Below the pieces are notes generated by a model. That model was not told the origin of the DNA. It saw only the letters and a program-made list of their open reading frames with translations, and did not search any database. Both the position numbers and the translations under genes were made by a program. Shown here one piece after another: positions 3,050 to 47,119 of a stretch of DNA of 64,000 nt. Source of the stretch: Naegleria gruberi (Eukaryota); the NCBI GenBank assembly GCA_000004985.1, contig GG738905.1. One strand, written 5' to 3'. Within the stretch, counting starts at the first letter, position 1. Each line of letters begins with the position of its first letter.

Positions 3050-3099
3050 NNNNNNNNNNNNNNNNNNNNNNNNNNNNNNNNNNNNNNNNNNNNNNNNNN
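3050..3099. other. assembly gap (50 N)
   Basis: Run of n characters read directly from the sequence. Confidence 0.98.
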
Positions 3100-5189: not shown

Positions 5190-5239
5190 NNNNNNNNNNN
5201 NNNNNNNNNNNNNNNNNNNNNNNNNNNNNNNNNNNNNNN
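5190..5239. other. assembly gap (50 N)
   Basis: Run of n characters. Genes on both strands run into it. Confidence 0.98.
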
Positions 5240-39715: not shown

Positions 39716-40471
39716 ATGTGTTGGTCTCTCAGAGCTTCCTTGTTCTTTTCCATCCTAGGAGGATTGATGACTTTGGATCAGATTCGAAGAACACTTGCTA
39801 TTCGAAAGGAGTGGAGAGCACGGAGTATATCTCAAGTATTAATGTACCTGTCGTATACCTTGATGGAATTCCTACAATTTCTACAGTATTGGTTTGGAAT
39901 TGAAGGAACGTGTGGCACCACTTCAAATATTTTCCTGTCAATTGTGGCTCACTTTCTAATTTGGACTCAACCACTGGCACACAATTATTGGTGTTTAAGG
40001 AATACAGCGAAGGGAAGAAGTACTTTCAGATATGCTTTGTTTTGCTCCTTCTCCACCCTAATTCTGGCAAGTATCAGTTTGGCAATGGGTTATTTTCAAG
40101 TTGGTGGATTTGGTGTTGGAATTGAAAATGACAATCTGGAAGGTGTTCCAGGAAATGTTTTGGGAATTGAAATTCAAAATGTGAATACCAAATTGTGTTC
40201 AATGCAAGGACCTAATCATTTATATTGGATGTTTCCCTATCATCCAATATGGGGACATGGCATTTCGTGGTTTACTTGGTTGATGGTTGCTGCATTTCCT
40301 CATTTCTTTAGATATTCAGTTAAGGATAATGATTTCTTTGGAAAGAGTTGGGTGATGGGAAGTGTTGTCGTTGGTGGATGGTTAGTTGCCTTGGCAGTCA
40401 CTTTGACAATTGGCAATTTCCATGAGACACCTTCTTATTGGTGCCTTATTTCAGTTCCATGTTTGGTGTAG
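39716..40471 (+). CDS. hypothetical polytopic membrane protein (251 aa, ~6 TM, W/C-rich)
   Basis: Real ATG. Multiple hydrophobic helices. It ends ~70 nt upstream of the retroelement repeat. Confidence 0.4.
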   Translation: MCWSLRASLFFSILGGLMTLDQIRRTLAIRKEWRARSISQVLMYLSYTLMEFLQFLQYWFGIEGTCGTTSNIFLSIVAHFLIWTQPLAHNYWCLRNTAKGRSTFRYALFCSFSTLILASISLAMGYFQVGGFGVGIENDNLEGVPGNVLGIEIQNVNTKLCSMQGPNHLYWMFPYHPIWGHGISWFTWLMVAAFPHFFRYSVKDNDFFGKSWVMGSVVVGGWLVALAVTLTIGNFHETPSYWCLISVPCLV

Positions 40472-40539
40472 CCCTATGTGTCTGCATTCTTCAATCCTAA
40501 ACGATTCATTGTTCGAGAGGAATTGTATGTCAAAATGCC

Positions 40540-40795
40540 AAAGTCTTCATCTTCTGAATATGATTCAAAGAAAGTTGCCTAATTTTTGAGGGATGAGAAT
40601 TGATGGATTGAAAGCCTCCATCTCATTGAGAATGAGCATTGACAATAATAGTGGAATCATTCAATGTCGATTTGAAACTATTTCAAATAAATTTCGAGTT
40701 GGAATCTGCTACTTTTTTTAAGTGTTTGGTGATAAACGTTGGGTCAATTTGTTACTTTCCATTTTGAGGAGTCATGCAGATTTCTTGAATGAAAG
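40540..40795 (+). repeat. terminal repeat A1 of the DIRS-like element
   Basis: About 90% identical to 44976-45236. Both start aaagtcttcatcttctgaatatgattcaaagaaagttgcctaattt and end gatttcttgaatgaaag. Confidence 0.85.
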
Positions 40796-40796
40796 T

Positions 40797-40915
40797 TGAA
40801 GTGAGTACCCCACTCACTAAGGTTTATTGTAAACTACACACACCAATAAATATGAAAAATTTTTGTCTGAAAAAATTTCAACACAGCAAGATGTTAAAAG
40901 ACAAGATTTACGCTC
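40797..40915 (+). repeat. repeat B1
   Basis: ttgaagtgagtaccccactcactaaggtttattgtaaactacacacaccaataaatatgaaaaatttttgtctgaaaaaatttcaacacagcaagatgttaaaagacaagatttacgctc is identical to 44800-44921. Confidence 0.9.
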
Positions 40916-42034
40916 TTATTAAAGAACACTCCAGTGATGTTATGGCTAGTATGCCTCCAAACACCATCAAGATGGTATTGGATCTACTTGGCGAAAACCC
41001 TGAAGACAAAGAAAGATGGCTAGAAATTGTTGAAGACGCAGGTGGTGCGTTATTCAACAACTTCTCAACAAAAGCAGAGGCCCAGGAATACTTTACCAAA
41101 GGTATTAAGAAGTTAGCAAAGAGTGGTAAAGTTGCTTCCACTAGAAGTAAGACTACCTCTTTGCAAGAGGCAAGCACTCCAAGTAACATGAATAAGACTT
41201 CTTCTTCATCTCAAATGGCTACCCCAAAGGTTTCTAGCGTTAGTCAGGTTAGAGAGTTCGTCCAAAAGAGAAGGATTGAAGAAACAGACGACAAGGAGTG
41301 GAAGAGAAGAGGTGTTATTCTTGACCCAGCTGATTTCCTTGAAAAGCCAGCTACTTGGAATCTCCCAAGTAGACAACAATGGGAAGAGATGAACCGCCAA
41401 ATCAACATTTTAGTGGTCGGTAAACAGGTTGAAGAAAAGGTTAAGGAAACGTTTCCGCCATTGAGTACCAATAACCAAGCATTGAAAGCAGAGTACGACA
41501 CCTTGAAAGAGGTCGCAGGAAGCGTCTACGGTGCTGCATTGTTGAACAAGGATGAGTCAGTTGCAGACAAGTTGGAGGGTGCCATTGAATATATCAAGGA
41601 GAAAGCGGTACACCTCAAGCTCGTTTCCTTCGACAAGCATCTTGCGGAGAAGGTTCGTATCATTCGTTCAGATAAGACCTGGAGAGAACAGGCTGACCTT
41701 ATTAAGGTCGCCTCCAAGTTGATGAAGGTAGAAAGTGAAGTGATTAAGAATGGAAACTTGCCAGTCATCAATAATATGACTAAAGCTGTTGAAAAGGCAA
41801 GAGATACCTATCCTGTAGCTTCCCACTGTTTCAAATGCGGAGAAGTTGGACACTTGGCAAAGAATTGCAATAAATCCACTTCCAAATACGTCTCGGTAAG
41901 TACTATTTTTCGATCCTCCAGATGCGGCAGAGATACGGGAGAGGAAACAAGCTGTTCACTCCATTTCGAATGCTTGGAAGGAGTGGAAGAGAAGAGGAGC
42001 GAAACCTTCGATAATAAGGCTCCTGAAAGAGGGT

Positions 42035-43852
42035 GTGAAAGTGCTTCCTTCAACAGGGTTCAAAAGATCAGTGGAGACAGTAAATTCAGCCAAGTTCTCA
42101 ATAAGGGAACTACAGTGGTTGGAAAGGGAGATAAATTTGCTAAAGAAGATTGGTGCATTAGAAGCTTGTCAGAATGCGGAAGTAGTGGCCAAGTTCAGAT
42201 TGGTACCAAAGGGAGAACAGTACAGATTGATTGTAGACTTGAGACCCTTAAACAAATATTGCCTCATCCCCAAATTCAAGTACAACACATTGAAGAGATT
42301 CTTAGAGTTTATTCCAGAATCTGGAACCATGTTCCTATCATCATTCGATTTGAAGTCTGGGTACCACCAGCTAAAAGTCCACAAGGACTCAAGAAAATTT
42401 TTTGCTATCAACTATTTTGGACAATTATTACAGTTTACTGTGTTGCCCTTTGGCTGGAATGGATCACCATAGAACTTCACTTTGGTAATGAATCAAGCGG
42501 TAATTTTGATGGAATCACCACTCATGCGTCTTTCCAATTATTTGGACGATGTGCAAATAGTGAATGTAGTGGAAGAAACAATAGCCGTACAGAATGTAGA
42601 AATATGCAGGGAAGATGCAAACCAGCTTGGTTTAGTGTTAGAGAGAAGAAAGAGTGTAATGAAACCAATGACAGAATTAGTAGTGTTGGGGTCATGTGTG
42701 AATATTATAACGAAGACACTATCAATGACAGAGGCTACGATAGTGAAGATTACGAATATGATAAAATCAGTACTCACGCGGATTCATTTAGGCAAAACAG
42801 TGTCGGTAAGGAAGATGAGTTCGATAAGCGGGACAGTGATTGCTTATTTGGAATGTTTTATCCCAGCAAGGGTGATGCTTGCTCCCATATTCGCCTTAAT
42901 AGCAAAAACAGTAGTGAAGTACGGATGGAAAGCTTCGGTATTCGTAAGGGATGTCAGGGTCATTCACAACCTTCAATGGATTATTGCAAATATAAGGATG
43001 TGGAATGGAAAACACTTCCAGAGGCCATCATTGGTCTATTACTTCTGGACAGATGCATCAGATTGGGGTTGGGGAGCATATTTCGAGGAGAAGGACTTGA
43101 AGATAGGTGGTCAATGGTCGGAACAAGAAAGAAAACTTCATATCCATATAAGAGAAATGTTAGCGGTGTTAAGAGCTTTGATGGAATGGAAGCATTTGTT
43201 CGAAGAGAGAAAGATCATTATTTATGTGGACAATTGGATTATCTTACACAACATTTTAAAGGGATGGGCAAAAAGCCCACTTATGAGAAGGTTAATTATG
43301 AGCTTCTGGAGAATTATATTCAGCCACAATATAACTCTATTGTCTGTGGAATGGTTACCGTCGGAAGAGAATTATATGGCAGACGGGATCAGCAGGGGGA
43401 TAATGAACGATCCCACGGATTGGGAGATGACTATTCCAGCATTTCAAAGGATTCAGAAGGAACTTCTAGTGGAAATAGGATTCGACAGATTCGCTTCCCA
43501 CGTAAGCTTCAAAGTCAAGCCTTACATGGTAAGAGAAAGAAATTTCAGAGGAGAGAAAGCAGACGCCTTCTCTACATTATGGACAGAAGAGGTTGTAAAT
43601 TTGTGTTGCGTCCCATTCAACTTAATAGGAAGAGTATTGAAACATTGCGAAGAATCAAAAGCTATAATGGTGTTGATTCATCCAGTATGGAAGAGAAGGT
43701 TTTGGTGGCCAATTCTAGAAAAGTATCGTATAAGGAGTGTATCGATGAATGGAAAGGACTTCTTTACAAAGTCCAATACAGGTCACGTAGAACCTTGCAA
43801 GAAATCTTGGCTATTAGAGGCAAGTCTGATAGATTGTCGAACTCGGAACTAA
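42035..43852 (+). pseudogene. RT/RNase H ORF of the DIRS-like element, interrupted by one in-frame TAG (~42473)
   Basis: Both sub-ORFs are in the same frame. The stop falls between the LPFGWNGSP motif and the YLDD motif. Otherwise the frame is intact. Confidence 0.7.
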
Positions 43853-44772
43853 TTAGAATTGCCAAGGAGGTCATTAGCTCTCACAGATACAAAGAGAGCA
43901 CTGACAAGAACTACAGAAGATATTGGGTGCGCTTTATTAGATTTAACATTGAAAGAAAGGCTTGTTTTCCTCCTTCAGAAGATAATCTTATTGCTTTCCT
44001 GACGAACATGTTCCTTAAAACACCGTCAGGAAGCAACTGCAGTGCAGCATATGCTGCTATCATGGCATTTGCCAAGAAATTTAGTTTAGATCAGGGAATG
44101 CGAGGAGATAATATTCGAGAAGTTTTAAATGGAATGACTAATCTTTCAAGAGTGGCTAGTGAGAAGGAAAGAAATGCTTGGCAACTAGAATTTATTAGAA
44201 AGTGGGTGAGCATAGGTAGGAGAAGCGTGTCTGACAGAGAATTTGTATTATACACATCTATGATGATCATAGGTCTACGAACTATGTTGAGAGGAAGTGA
44301 ACTTGGTGAACTAAAGACCGAAGATGTTCAATTTCTTCGCTTGGAGAATGGTAAAATGGCAGTCAAATTGAAATGTAGAAGAGTTAAATCTAGTCAGGGT
44401 AGAATGGGTAGAATTATGTGTATAGAGAGTACAGGAAATGATTTGTGCCCAGTATCTTGGTTGAATAGGTGGATGGTGTATAGAGATCAAGGTGATTACT
44501 TATTTGGTAATAGTAAGGCTTTGACTACAATCGACATTTCGTGGATACTGAGATTTGTGGCGTCAGTTATTGGAGTAGATGGATGTTTCTCCTCTCATTC
44601 TTTAAGAATTGGAGGTGCTAATGAAGCAGCTCAAGCAGGTTTTTCTCTCGCTGCTATTCAAGCTTTAGGCAACTGGTCTTCAAATGCGGTTGACAAATAT
44701 TTCAGATCTGAGTTTTTCTATAGTAGAAACGTATCAAAAGAATTGGGTTTCTAGTAGGGGCTCATTGTTTTC

Positions 44773-44849
44773 GTATTTATTGGTGTGTAGTTGGATAAAT
44801 TGAAGTGAGTACCCCACTCACTAAGGTTTATTGTAAACTACACACACCA
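44773..44849 (+). promoter_or_regulatory. 19-bp perfect inverted repeat (tttattggtgtgtagtt(a) / aactacacacaccaataaa), candidate internal complementary region
   Basis: The left arm at ~44775-44793 lies just inside the internal region before B2. Its complement lies inside B2 (and inside B1 at ~40828-40846). A 19-bp stem with a ~31-nt loop. Confidence 0.6.
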
Positions 44850-44921
44850 ATAAATATGAAAAATTTTTGTCTGAAAAAATTTCAACACAGCAAGATGTTA
44901 AAAGACAAGATTTACGCTCCC
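44800..44921 (+). repeat. repeat B2
   Basis: Identical to B1. It is followed by cccacca and then the N-gap. Confidence 0.9.
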
Positions 44922-44925
44922 ACCA

Positions 44926-44975
44926 NNNNNNNNNNNNNNNNNNNNNNNNNNNNNNNNNNNNNNNNNNNNNNNNNN
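44926..44975. other. assembly gap (50 N) between B2 and A2
   Basis: Run of n characters. Confidence 0.98.
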
Positions 44976-45236
44976 AAAGTCTTCATCTTCTGAATATGAT
45001 TCAAAGAAAGTTGCCTAATTTATGAGAATGGATGAGAATGGATGGATTGAAAGCATTTCATCTCATTGAGAATGAGTATTGACAATAATAGTAGAATCAT
45101 TCAATGTCGATTTGAAACTATTTCAAATAAATTTCGTTATTGCAATCTGCCACATTTTTTAAGTGTTTGGTGACAAATGTTGGTCAGTTTGTTATTTTCC
45201 ATTTTTGAGGTGTCACGCCGATTTCTTGAATGAAAG
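44976..45236 (+). repeat. terminal repeat A2
   Basis: Matches A1 with a few substitutions and indels (e.g. ttatgagaatggatgagaatggatgg versus tttttgagggatgagaattgatgg). It starts exactly at the gap edge, so its true 5' extent is unknown. Confidence 0.85.
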
Positions 45237-47119
45237 ATTTCTCTTGTTGAACGTGATTTCCAGATATCAAGCTAAATGAAAATCCAAATGTTGTCGATAT
45301 TCGTTGAAATTGAAAATTCATGAAGGAAAGCAACATTTCCATACAATTACAATTTGTTTCTTATCACCACTCGAGATGATCTTGTTTCATGTGATCTTTC
45401 GAATGAACTTGTGAAAGATCCTAATTACAAAAGTGAAACTGTTCAATAAAAATTACGTTAAATGCAATGTTTTAAAGATGTTGATGAATATTTCATTTAC
45501 AGTCGTCCTCAAAAGGTAATATACTGTCGAGTTCACTCATTCCCAATTACGAAAACATTTCTAATAATTCATTCAACATCCAATAGAGAATCTTCAAACT
45601 ATGAAAACATGATCTCCACAATCTCCCCATTAAGTCGAATATTCCAAACCAATTAGTACTTTGAATTAAGGGCATTTAACCTATTTGGATGCTTATTTCC
45701 CCTTAATTGGACAATTGCACTACGGTACTTCCTCAACAGTCCATTGAGATTTTTTAGATAAAATACCCAAAATTCAAGGCACCTTGAAAATAGTTTAAAG
45801 GAAGCCATGCATGTGAGATGATGAAGAAGGCATGTTTGCATGCGAAAGTTATGATGAAATCTAGTCATGTACATGTTGGTGCACATGACAGTATGTGAGA
45901 AGATTACATGTCTACTCTTTGATGTTGTAAGGGCATGTCTGAATGAAAATCCACACATTGGATGGAGATGTATGTGTGATGATAAGAGAGATACTCATCT
46001 TGATTAGATCTTTTACTTCTGCAGAGTTGGAAATAATTAAGAACTGTTTGTCAATAGTACTTACCAAGTTTTTGTTTTCCTTCATGTAATCATGGTGATG
46101 TAAATTGACATCATGTTTGTCAAGAATGAACATGAATCAAGTGTTTAGCATGGAGTGGTTGTGCGTCACTACTCCATCAACATGTGAAATTATTTCACAC
46201 CAACAAGAACAAAAGGTAATTTAGCAACAAAACACATATATGGCAAAGCACACCCCCATTATCACCAAGCAAACTGTTCTTTCAAGATGTTCCATCACCT
46301 CACTTGAATCTCGGTTAGTGGTGCTACCATTGAAAGTTGTTGATTTAAATCTTGTCCACCAAAAGATGAGAGGAAGTAGTGCGCACCTCATTGTTGCCTG
46401 GTTGGTGATGTTGTTCTTGTTGTTGAATTGGTAATAACCAACTCAAACAAACAGCCTCAACAAGAGTGCATTTCATTGCTTTGCAATTTGCTTTCTTTTT
46501 TTCTAAAGTGTTGTTCATCATCATATCGCTTAATATTTATTTTAAGAGAGTAATCAGGTGGTGTGTGATTCTTGGACTAGTAGTGCGCAGAGTGATTATT
46601 AGTATTATTATTATTAATTATAATCAATTATTTATATCTTTAAAATCATCAACACATCAAATATTTAATAAGGGTTTGAGTTGTTTCCCGCCAAAAATAT
46701 AATTGACTCTTGAAAGGGGTAGGTACCTACCTGATCATTTATTTATAATATTATTTAATATTATAATATCTAAGATCTTGCTTCGAAACTCTATCAATTG
46801 ATTTCTTTTAAATTTTTAAGAACTGTAGAATCATAAGAATTACCAAATAGAACGGACCAAAGCAAAAGAGAGTAAAATCTGCGATATATCTCAAATCACA
46901 TCCAATTTAATCTTAAGAATCCGAGATTCTATTTTTACGCCAAGTCGCTACAAGTACGGAAGTAAAGAGCCATAGAGTGAAATTTTTTTGCTATTAGATT
47001 GTGGACTCCATTGTGTTTTAGTGGTCGAGTGACAGTTTCAAAGTTATAAGAAACTCTAAAAAATTGAACACATCTCTCACTTTGAGGTTCCATTACTGAG
47101 AGAATAGTTTCGAATAATT

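What the first reader, a model, noticed from the sequence alone, without database searches (positions are those of the whole stretch)
40789..44754. A single 1321-codon frame runs through the whole element and overprints the RT/RNase H frame for ~1.8 kb
Frame 1 is open from Gag to the recombinase domain with no stop. The RT/RH protein is encoded in frame 2 over 42035-43852. Long overlapping ORFs (YR overlapping RT) are a known peculiarity of DIRS1. Here the overlap looks even more extensive: in frame 1, Gag and the YR are continuous. The middle of frame 1 has no recognisable domain, so it may be an overprinted linker kept open by selection.
Basis: partly seen in the sequence, partly recalled or inferred. 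Interest (0 to 1): 0.55.

Follow-up and report, generated by a model that had tools for sequence, protein, structure and literature searches.

The report
Recombinase frame overprinting reverse transcriptase gene
A tyrosine-recombinase (DIRS-type) retrotransposon in the amoeba Naegleria gruberi keeps one reading frame stop-free from its capsid-like gene, across the whole polymerase gene (which sits in another frame), to its recombinase; this is a clear new example of an overlap already known in this element group.

Summary
Frame 1 is open over 40789-44754 (1321 codons). Pol (RT/RNase H/MT-like) lies in the +1 frame, 41900-43852. Keeping the pol protein fixed and permuting its synonymous codons predicts 30.6±3.9 frame-1 stops; none is seen (P about 6e-20).

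Corrections:
- The ATG at 40789 is host DNA; the element starts near 40796.
- Pol has a premature TAG at 42470, so this copy is probably defective.
- The 3' end is lost in an assembly gap.

Relatives keep the same frame stop-free: two metagenomic elements with 53-54% pol identity and a Naegleria lovaniensis fragment. Among 72 distinct DIRS-like loci the count of stops in this frame is bimodal: 0 in 24 loci, 22-77 in 48.

The overprinted 631-residue stretch has no domain. It evolves like a non-coding frame (apparent dN/dS 1.6-3.6; pol 0.08-0.21). Selection acts on openness, not on sequence.

Best reading: a translated spacer carries ribosomes from Gag to the 3' recombinase, and pol, which has no start codon, is reached by a +1 frameshift.

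Long YR/pol overlap is already documented for DIRS elements. The only variant here is the missing stop between gag and the YR frame. Interest is moderate to low.

The parts
40796..44925 (+). DIRS-order tyrosine-recombinase retroelement in Naegleria gruberi. It is not annotated as a gene; its 3' end is lost in the assembly gap.
   Evidence: Domains. Left junction defined by the empty-site-like copy of the flank. Flanking ORFs are exact matches to EFC38710 and EFC38711, consecutive accessions.
40789..44754 (+). Stop-free frame-1 ORF of 1321 codons (Gag, overprinted spacer, YR). The first two to three codons, including the ATG, are host flank.
40796..40915 (+). Repeat A1, the 5' copy of a 123-nt direct repeat (reported by the tool as 40793-40915).
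   Evidence: 99% identical to 44797-44919
44797..44919 (+). Repeat A2, the 3' copy of the direct repeat. It is followed by CCCACCA and then the N gap.
40852..41895 (+). Gag-like region in frame 1, counted from the first ATG inside the element. The CCHC zinc knuckle is at 41824-41871.
   Evidence: Pfam zf-CCHC E = 2.9e-5 and 1.3e-5. 24% identity to the L001 gag.
41899..43791 (+). Overprinted spacer: 631 frame-1 codons overlapping pol. No stops, no recognisable domain, rich in S/R/G/E/K.
41900..43852 (+). Pol frame (frame 2, +1 relative to gag). RT at 42212-42691, RNase H at 43022-43237, MT-like tail at about 43427-43849. No ATG before 42329.
42470..42472 (+). In-frame TAG inside the RT domain (SP*NFT). 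The homologous residue is Y in L002 and F in L001. Most simply a nonsense mutation of this copy.
41900..41929 (+). The only window in which a gag-to-pol +1 shift can occur. It lies between the opening of the pol frame and the first conserved pol residues (EIRER). It contains ATT TTT CGA at 41903-41911.
   Evidence: L001 has CCC TTT TGT in the equivalent window. The site itself is inferred, not shown.
43792..44751 (+). Tyrosine recombinase. SAM-like N-domain at 43858-44079, catalytic domain at 44257-44700 (HSLRIGGA ... GNWSSNAVDKYF).
   Evidence: 46.6% identity to the L001 YR and 41% to N. lovaniensis C9374_003580.
44768..44862 (+). Strong hairpin just after the YR stop. Segment 44774-44794 pairs with 44839-44861 inside repeat A2.
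   Evidence: -29.4 kcal/mol, z = -5.5. (self-complementary hit).
40540..40795 (+). Host flank X1, directly upstream of the element.
44976..45236 (+). X2, a copy of flank X1 (90% identity by blastn, with indels) placed right after the 50-N gap (44926-44975). It continues into unique DNA and so looks like the uninterrupted target site.

Best explanation
The locus is a young but defective copy of a DIRS-order (tyrosine-recombinase) retrotransposon of Naegleria gruberi. Its zero frame reads Gag, then a 631-residue spacer, then the recombinase, as one polyprotein.

The spacer is the -1 frame of pol. It is translated, but its sequence is essentially free. Selection removes only stop codons, because ribosomes must pass through it to reach the 3'-proximal recombinase on the full-length RNA. 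Scanning could not reach the recombinase otherwise: 11 frame-1 and 21 frame-2 ATGs lie upstream of it.

Pol has no start codon of its own for 143 codons. It is reached by a +1 shift of a fraction of ribosomes within 41900-41929, giving Gag-Pol.

What is shown:
- dual-frame openness far beyond chance;
- conservation of that openness across relatives;
- neutral evolution of the spacer sequence;
- absence of a pol start codon.

What is inferred:
- that the spacer is actually translated;
- that Gag stays joined to YR;
- the +1 shift and its site.
For: - 0 frame-1 stops against 30.6±3.9 expected; 0 of 193 susceptible codon junctions; P = 6e-20.
- The same frame is stop-free in relatives. L001: 0 against 31.9±4.0. 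L002: 0 against 24.2±3.4. L004: 0 against 21.4±3.5. L007: 0 against 21.6±3.5. It is also open in the N. lovaniensis fragment L089.
- Among 72 distinct loci the count is bimodal: 0 in 24, 22-77 in 48, nothing between. On a rough NJ tree the zero state falls in a few clades.
- Among zero-stop loci where a YR was detected, it lies in the pol -1 frame, contiguous with the open stretch. The exception is L001, where a 1-nt deletion displaces the YR.
- Pol third positions diverge freely (39% differ between L035 and L040) while no stop appears. dN/dS is 0.08-0.21 for pol and 1.6-3.6 for the spacer frame, equal to a non-coding control.
- Spacer identity barely exceeds the baseline.
[quoted passage not shown] In the window and in L001 that stop is absent.
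- Pol has no ATG before 42329, and its frame opens only 30 nt before conserved pol residues.
Against: - There is no transcript, ribosome-profiling or peptide evidence.
- This copy has a nonsense codon in RT, so it cannot show that the arrangement works.
- A constitutive Gag-spacer-YR product would make recombinase equimolar with Gag. DIRS elements have no protease to release Gag.
- The +1 site is weak. CGA is 10% of host Arg codons, so not very rare. No RNA structure follows the site (z = +0.5).
- Two thirds of the DIRS-like loci surveyed manage without the overlap, so another route to YR expression exists.
- In relatives with gag in a different frame (L004, L082), entry into the YR frame is unexplained.
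- Many zero-stop loci are GC-rich (up to 0.71). There, chance openness is less improbable, and I tested it by permutation only for L001, L002, L004 and L007.
Confidence: 0.5

Rival explanations
1. Only part of the open frame is translated. The recombinase is made from an internal ATG in the spacer (for example 43579 or 43687), or from a spliced or subgenomic RNA. The openness further upstream would then be a leftover or serve another purpose.
For: Frame 1 has 11 ATGs within 41897-44000. Gene callers place YR starts at internal ATGs in relatives: L004 at 3486 and L001 at 2706. 5'-truncated copies that keep only the pol tail plus YR exist: L089, L090 and, in part, L002.
Against: Stops upstream of an internal start would be harmless, yet none occurs over about 630 codons in any zero-group locus, and no locus has an intermediate count. 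In L007 and in nine other loci the open frame begins at, or just before, the stop of the upstream gag-like ORF.
Confidence: 0.2
2. RNA-protection reading. The frame is kept open so that non-shifted ribosomes do not terminate about 3 kb before the RNA's 3' end. That avoids nonsense-mediated decay of the genomic RNA. The spacer-YR protein from these ribosomes would be incidental.
For: The spacer sequence is unconstrained and only stops are purged. This is what a 'keep translating' requirement predicts. Long 3' UTRs triggering NMD, and retroviral counter-measures, are established knowledge and were not tested here.
Against: The frame ends in a conserved, clearly functional YR domain in the same frame. 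The simplest purpose is therefore to make YR. Nine relatives do have a gag stop upstream of the spacer, and NMD avoidance does not predict that.
Confidence: 0.1
3. The frame-1 middle section encodes a real, fast-evolving functional domain: a true overprinted gene rather than a mere spacer.
For: Identity is slightly above baseline: window against L001 z = 2.1, L001 against L002 z = 2.6, and the MT-overlapping tail z = 1.8. Overprinted viral proteins are often disordered and invisible to Pfam (general knowledge).
Against: No Pfam hit at E<=1 and no PDB hit. Apparent dN/dS is the same as for a non-coding control frame. Pol third-position identity is not elevated (0.41 against 0.43 expected).
Confidence: 0.12
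4. The openness is due to chance or composition: purine-rich sequence, with few T at pol third positions.
For: The region has positive GC and AT skew, and T is only 20% of pol third positions.
Against: Permutations that keep exactly this codon composition still predict 30.6±3.9 stops, with a minimum of 18. The other alternative frame has 84 stops. The same element's gag and YR regions have 31 and 37 stops in their -1 frames. Relatives with similar GC (L008 at 0.43) have 55.
Confidence: 0.01

Closest known systems
DIRS1-like retrotransposons with 'long ORF overlap' (Dictyostelium DIRS-1; Piednoel et al. 2011, PMC3266345)
   Same: [quoted passage not shown] Long overlap was reported in half of 28 annotated elements, and N. 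gruberi is listed as a host of uncharacterised copies.
   Different: In the window, gag and the YR ORF are one uninterrupted frame, whereas DIRS-1 is described with three ORFs. The terminal repeats seen are direct (A1/A2), not inverted. No ITR/ICR pair was found, but the right end is missing.
PAT-like / Ngaro-type elements with split direct repeats (A1 ... B1 A2 B2)
   Same: The 5' terminal sequence is repeated directly near the 3' end (123 nt, 99%), just downstream of the YR stop. The pol tail is homologous to MT-bearing relatives, as in PAT-like elements.
   Different: B2 cannot be seen because of the gap, so the split-repeat pattern is only half verified. Ngaro and VIPER are said to lack MT and usually to lack ORF overlaps (PMC3266345).
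Single-ORF TATE copies of Bodo saltans (PMC6681497) and metagenomic proteins P0064, P0076 and P0080
   Same: Gag-like, RT and YR signatures in one long ORF of 1236-1352 aa.
   Different: In those proteins RT itself lies in the long ORF, either as a true single frame or as a frame-switched chimera. In the window the long ORF avoids the RT frame completely and overprints it.
Retroviral and retrotransposon recoding: MLV gag-pol read-through and Ty1/Ty3 +1 frameshifting
   Same: A downstream enzyme is made as a C-terminal extension of Gag. Pol is +1 relative to gag and lacks a start codon. Relatives have UAG-G or UGA-C gag stops followed by GC hairpins.
   Different: No stop separates gag from the YR frame in the window. 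No slippery site or stimulator has been demonstrated. Two different downstream products would branch from one gag.

Membership tests
DIRS order (tyrosine-recombinase retrotransposons) | RT/RNase H of the Ty3/gypsy type, plus a tyrosine recombinase instead of a DDE integrase | tested here: met
   RVT_1 E = 7.4e-15, RT_RNaseH E = 3.8e-8, Phage_integrase E = 2.8e-9. No rve/DDE hit.
DIRS order (tyrosine-recombinase retrotransposons) | No aspartic protease | tested here: met
   No protease family among the Pfam hits in either frame.
DIRS order (tyrosine-recombinase retrotransposons) | Upstream gag-like ORF | tested here: met
   zf-CCHC at aa 346-361, and 24% identity to the gag of L001.
DIRS1-like superfamily | Inverted terminal repeats plus an internal complementary region | tested here: inconclusive
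   The repeat finder gave no terminal inverted repeat, only the direct A1/A2 pair. A 21-nt segment after the YR stop is complementary to the inside of repeat A. The right terminus lies in the N gap.
DIRS1-like / PAT-like | Methyltransferase-like domain after RNase H | tested here: inconclusive
   No Pfam hit for 43304-43849 at E<=1. However, the pol tail aligns over 91-92% of the query with relatives that carry PF05869 (P0003, P0006). It is 61% identical to the L002 tail.
DIRS1-like elements with long ORF overlap | YR ORF overlaps pol extensively, with the catalytic domain in the non-overlapping 3' end | tested here: met
PAT-like (split direct repeats) | A1 at the 5' end; B1-A2-B2 at the 3' end | tested here: inconclusive
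   A1 and A2 are present (123 nt, 99%). B2 is not visible because of the gap at 44926-44975.
Programmed +1 ribosomal frameshift (gag to pol) | The downstream ORF lacks an initiator and overlaps the upstream frame | tested here: met
   The pol frame opens at 41900. Its first ATG is at 42329, inside RT. The same holds in L001.
Programmed +1 ribosomal frameshift (gag to pol) | Conserved shift-prone site and stimulator; measured shifting | tested here: inconclusive
   A T-run is present in both elements (ATT TTT CGA in the window, CCC TTT TGT in L001). There is no significant downstream structure, and CGA is only moderately rare. Measuring the shift needs an experiment.

The most novel reading that the evidence does not exclude
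In a large subset of DIRS-like elements, about 600-1000 codons of the pol -1 frame act as a sequence-free 'translational bridge'. Selection maintains nothing but translatability, so that one RNA yields a spacer-YR product. Where gag shares that frame, the product is Gag-spacer-YR, made in the zero frame or by read-through. Pol is made by a +1 shift where gag shares the YR frame. The Naegleria element would be the constitutive extreme, with the gag stop deleted. This would be an unusually long example of an ORF conserved only for being open.
Probability: 0.4. Interest if true: 0.55.

Novelty: new member of a known kind. Interest (0 to 1): 0.36.

Why it matters
The purpose of the long YR/pol overlap in DIRS elements is, as far as I found, still unexplained; the literature I read describes it only descriptively. 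This locus and its relatives sharpen the question into three testable points:
- the overlap is all-or-none;
- it is conserved for openness only;
- it is often in phase with gag.

That points to translation through the spacer as the route to the recombinase. It can be checked directly by ribosome profiling, or by placing pol-synonymous stop codons in an active DIRS element.

The locus also gives the first reasonably complete description of a Naegleria DIRS-type element, which the N. gruberi annotation omits. It does not reveal a new kind of system.

Tried and rejected
- A homology search with the whole 1321-aa ORF returned nothing. Searches with pol alone and with YR alone worked.
- Intron idea. 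GTAAGT...CCAG at 41896-41921 (26 nt) looks like a tiny intron. Removing it puts gag into frame 3, which stops at 42012, not into pol. The L001 counterpart would be 30 nt and change no frame. The length is also implausible for Naegleria. Rejected.
- Alternative genetic code (TAG as a sense codon). Rejected, because the annotated upstream gene EFC38710 ends at a TAG.
- RNA structure or a known recoding element at the gag/pol junction. There is no Rfam hit in 40400-45400, and the fold z is +0.5.
- A domain in the spacer. No Pfam hit at E<=1 and no PDB match.
- Minus strand. Its frames carry 47, 53 and 101 stops; the longest open stretch is 100 codons.
- There is no other copy of the element in the window and no tRNA gene.
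- Failed or faulty calls. Searches failed on input errors and timed out. In one search my 'YR' control was off-frame; it is corrected.
- Structure prediction of the spacer was not attempted, because the alignment would have had only three shallow rows.
Full report
**What is there**

The window is Naegleria gruberi nuclear DNA. It is intron-poor, has about 34% GC, and encodes an alpha-kinase, a PAS-cyclase, XRN and other host proteins. The ORFs flanking the finding are exact matches to EFC38710 (39716-40471) and EFC38711 (47120-48856). These accessions are consecutive, so the element between them was never annotated.

Between these genes lies a retroelement. Its frame 1 (40789-44754) is open for 1321 codons. 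In that frame Pfam finds a CCHC zinc knuckle (aa 346-361), a SAM-like recombinase N-domain (aa 1024-1097) and Phage_integrase (aa 1157-1304). In the +1 frame it finds RVT_1 and RNase H. There is no protease and no DDE integrase. This is a DIRS-order tyrosine-recombinase (YR) retrotransposon.

**Corrections to the description**

- The pol frame is open from 41900, directly after a TAA, rather than from 42035. It is broken by one TAG at 42470 within 'LPFGWNGSP*NFT'. Relatives have Y or F at that position, so this copy carries a nonsense mutation.
- The ATG at 40789 is host sequence. The 256-bp flank 40540-40795 recurs after the 50-N gap at 44976-45236 (90% identity by blastn, with indels). Homology stops exactly at ...GAATGAAAG, after which the second copy runs into unique DNA. 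The element therefore begins near 40796, and the first internal frame-1 ATGs are at 40852 and 40891.
- The element's first 123 nt (A1) are repeated directly at 44797-44919 (A2, 99%), just after the YR stop. The sequence then enters the gap, so the right terminus is unknown.

**Is the openness more than chance?**

Yes, by a wide margin.

| Null model or comparison | Frame-1 stops |
|---|---|
| Observed | 0 |
| Pol protein and codon composition held fixed, synonymous codons permuted | 30.6±3.9, minimum 18 of 3000 |
| Codon order shuffled | 39.4±4.7 |
| Synonymous codons drawn from gag+YR usage | 53.8±5.8 |

None of the 193 pol codons beginning AA, AG or GA is preceded by a T-ending codon, against 133 of 456 elsewhere. 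The binomial P is 6e-20. The remaining frame has 84 stops. The gag and YR regions have 31 and 37 stops in their own -1 frames. The minus strand has nothing.

**Relatives**

A pol query found two close relatives (53-54% identity) and many distant ones (23-30%) in metagenomes.

- L001 has gag, pol and YR. Two indels shift both frames together: a 7-nt gap at about 1076, and 'CGTAGAACC' against 'CGT-GAACC' at about 2689. Once these are allowed for, L001 has the same architecture as the window: gag, spacer and YR in one frame, with pol at +1. It has no stop in the spacer frame, against 31.9±4.0 expected.
- L002 and L003 are the same 5'-truncated, frameshifted copy next to a kinase gene. They have 0 stops against 24.2±3.4 expected.
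- A YR query found a Naegleria lovaniensis protein (C9374_003580). Its locus, L089, is a 5'-truncated copy with the same frame relation and both frames open.

A metagenome scan added 80 DIRS-like loci. Over 72 distinct loci the number of stops in the pol -1 frame is strictly bimodal: 0 in 24 loci and 22-77 in 48, with none between 1 and 21. Among zero-stop loci where a YR was detected, it lies in that frame, contiguous with the open stretch (apart from L001, displaced by its 1-nt deletion). YR-frame ORFs reach 1294 codons (L004), at least 1410 (L082) and at least 1686 (L046, with the YR motifs HSLRKGAA...GGW...Y). On a rough NJ tree without bootstrap support, the zero state falls in a few clades.

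**Constraint per frame**

- For the 80%-identical pair L035/L040, pol has dN/dS 0.08 while the spacer frame shows 3.6. For L017/L034 the values are 0.09 and 2.0.
- The -1 frame of the single-coding YR domain gives 2.9 and 1.7. The spacer therefore behaves like a non-coding frame.
- Window against L001: spacer identity is 29.8%, against 26.4±1.6% expected from pol conservation plus a no-stop rule (z = 2.1). Pol third-position identity is not raised.
- The spacer has no Pfam hit at E<=1 and no PDB relative. It is rich in S, R, G, E and K.

Selection therefore keeps the frame open but hardly cares what it encodes.

**How it most likely works**

The only ordinary force that removes stops from a frame while ignoring its sequence is that ribosomes must read through it. 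The YR domain sits about 3 kb from the 5' end, behind dozens of ATGs. Making it as the C-terminal end of a long zero-frame product solves the access problem.

[quoted passage not shown] These stops are UAG-G, UAG-C or UGA-N, and several are followed by strong GC hairpins (L015 z = -3.1, L058 z = -3.4). In the window and in L001 that stop is missing, so Gag-spacer-YR would be constitutive.

Pol is +1 relative to gag and has no ATG for 143 codons. Its frame opens only 30 nt before the conserved 'EIRER' motif. A +1 shift within 41900-41929 is therefore inferred. The window has ATT TTT CGA there and L001 has CCC TTT TGT. The site is unproven: CGA is 10% of host Arg codons, and no structure follows. 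In L017 and L034 the hairpin after the gag stop also lies where a +1 shift at the stop would enter pol. Those signals could therefore serve shifting rather than read-through.

**Rivals**

- Internal initiation, or a separate RNA for YR. This does not explain the absence of stops far upstream.
- NMD avoidance.
- A genuine fast-evolving overprinted domain. There is a weak excess of identity only.
- Chance or composition. This is excluded.

**Comparison with what is known**

Long YR/pol overlap is documented. [quoted passage not shown] They also list uncharacterised N. gruberi copies (PMC3266345). Other papers call YR and RT/RH ORFs 'frequently extensively overlapped' and note single-ORF TATE copies (PMC6681497; PMC3783388).

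The window is therefore a new member of this kind. Its small twist is that gag and the YR frame are fused without a stop. Its direct A1/A2 repeats resemble PAT-like or Ngaro split repeats more than DIRS1 inverted repeats, but the gap prevents a decision.

**Verdict**

Novelty is modest. The useful outcome is a concrete, testable model for why these elements keep a 600-1000-codon frame open.

Noticed in passing
window 42470-42472: In-frame TAG in the RT domain, where relatives have Tyr or Phe. This copy's pol is truncated although frame 1 is intact.
   Followed up: yes
window 40540-40795 and 44976-45236 (gap 44926-44975): The host flank is duplicated on the far side of the assembly gap (90% identity by blastn, with indels), and homology ends exactly at the insertion point. 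This looks like a haplotype mis-join or an old duplication rather than a target-site duplication. It also shows that the ORF's ATG at 40789 is host DNA.
   Followed up: partly
window 44768-44862: Very stable hairpin (-29.4 kcal/mol as ssDNA, z = -5.5) just after the YR stop. It pairs a 21-nt segment with the inside of terminal repeat A. It may be the counterpart of a DIRS internal complementary region.
   Followed up: partly
window 41896-41921: GTAAGT...CCAG, a 26-nt intron-like string at the gag/pol junction. Removing it would end gag in frame 3 at 42012. Judged coincidental.
   Followed up: yes
L015:1446, L017:2221, L034:2288, L058:1231, L072:1129, L047:1514, L059:2576, L073:2913, L074:515: In nine relatives a gag-like ORF and the roughly 1000-codon YR-frame ORF are in one frame, split by a single stop (UAG-G, UAG-C or UGA-N). 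Several stops are followed by strong GC hairpins. This suggests read-through and/or a +1 shift at the stop.
   Followed up: partly
L009-L088 (survey): The number of stops in the pol -1 frame is bimodal across 72 distinct DIRS-like loci: 0 in 24 and 22-77 in 48. On a rough NJ tree the zero state falls in a few clades.
   Followed up: yes
L089:8005-9359 (N. lovaniensis PYSW02000001.1), L090:2240-3423, L002:1720-3716: Several relatives are 5'-truncated copies that keep only the pol tail plus YR, or pol without gag. Two of them lie next to protein-kinase genes. The N. lovaniensis copy is annotated as a 452-aa hypothetical protein.
   Followed up: partly
proteins P0064, P0076, P0080: Metagenomic proteins of 1236-1352 aa carry RVT_1 and Phage_integrase in one ORF; two of them (P0076, P0080) also carry zf-CCHC. 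They are either true single-frame elements or chimeras made by indels between two open frames. No DNA was available to decide.
   Followed up: no
window 39716-40471: The upstream host gene (EFC38710, DUF5765-like) clusters at the tool's 90% identity level with a paralogue (NAEGRDRAFT_82064) on another N. gruberi scaffold.
   Followed up: no
window 3050-3099, 5190-5239: Two further 50-N scaffold gaps in the window.
   Followed up: no
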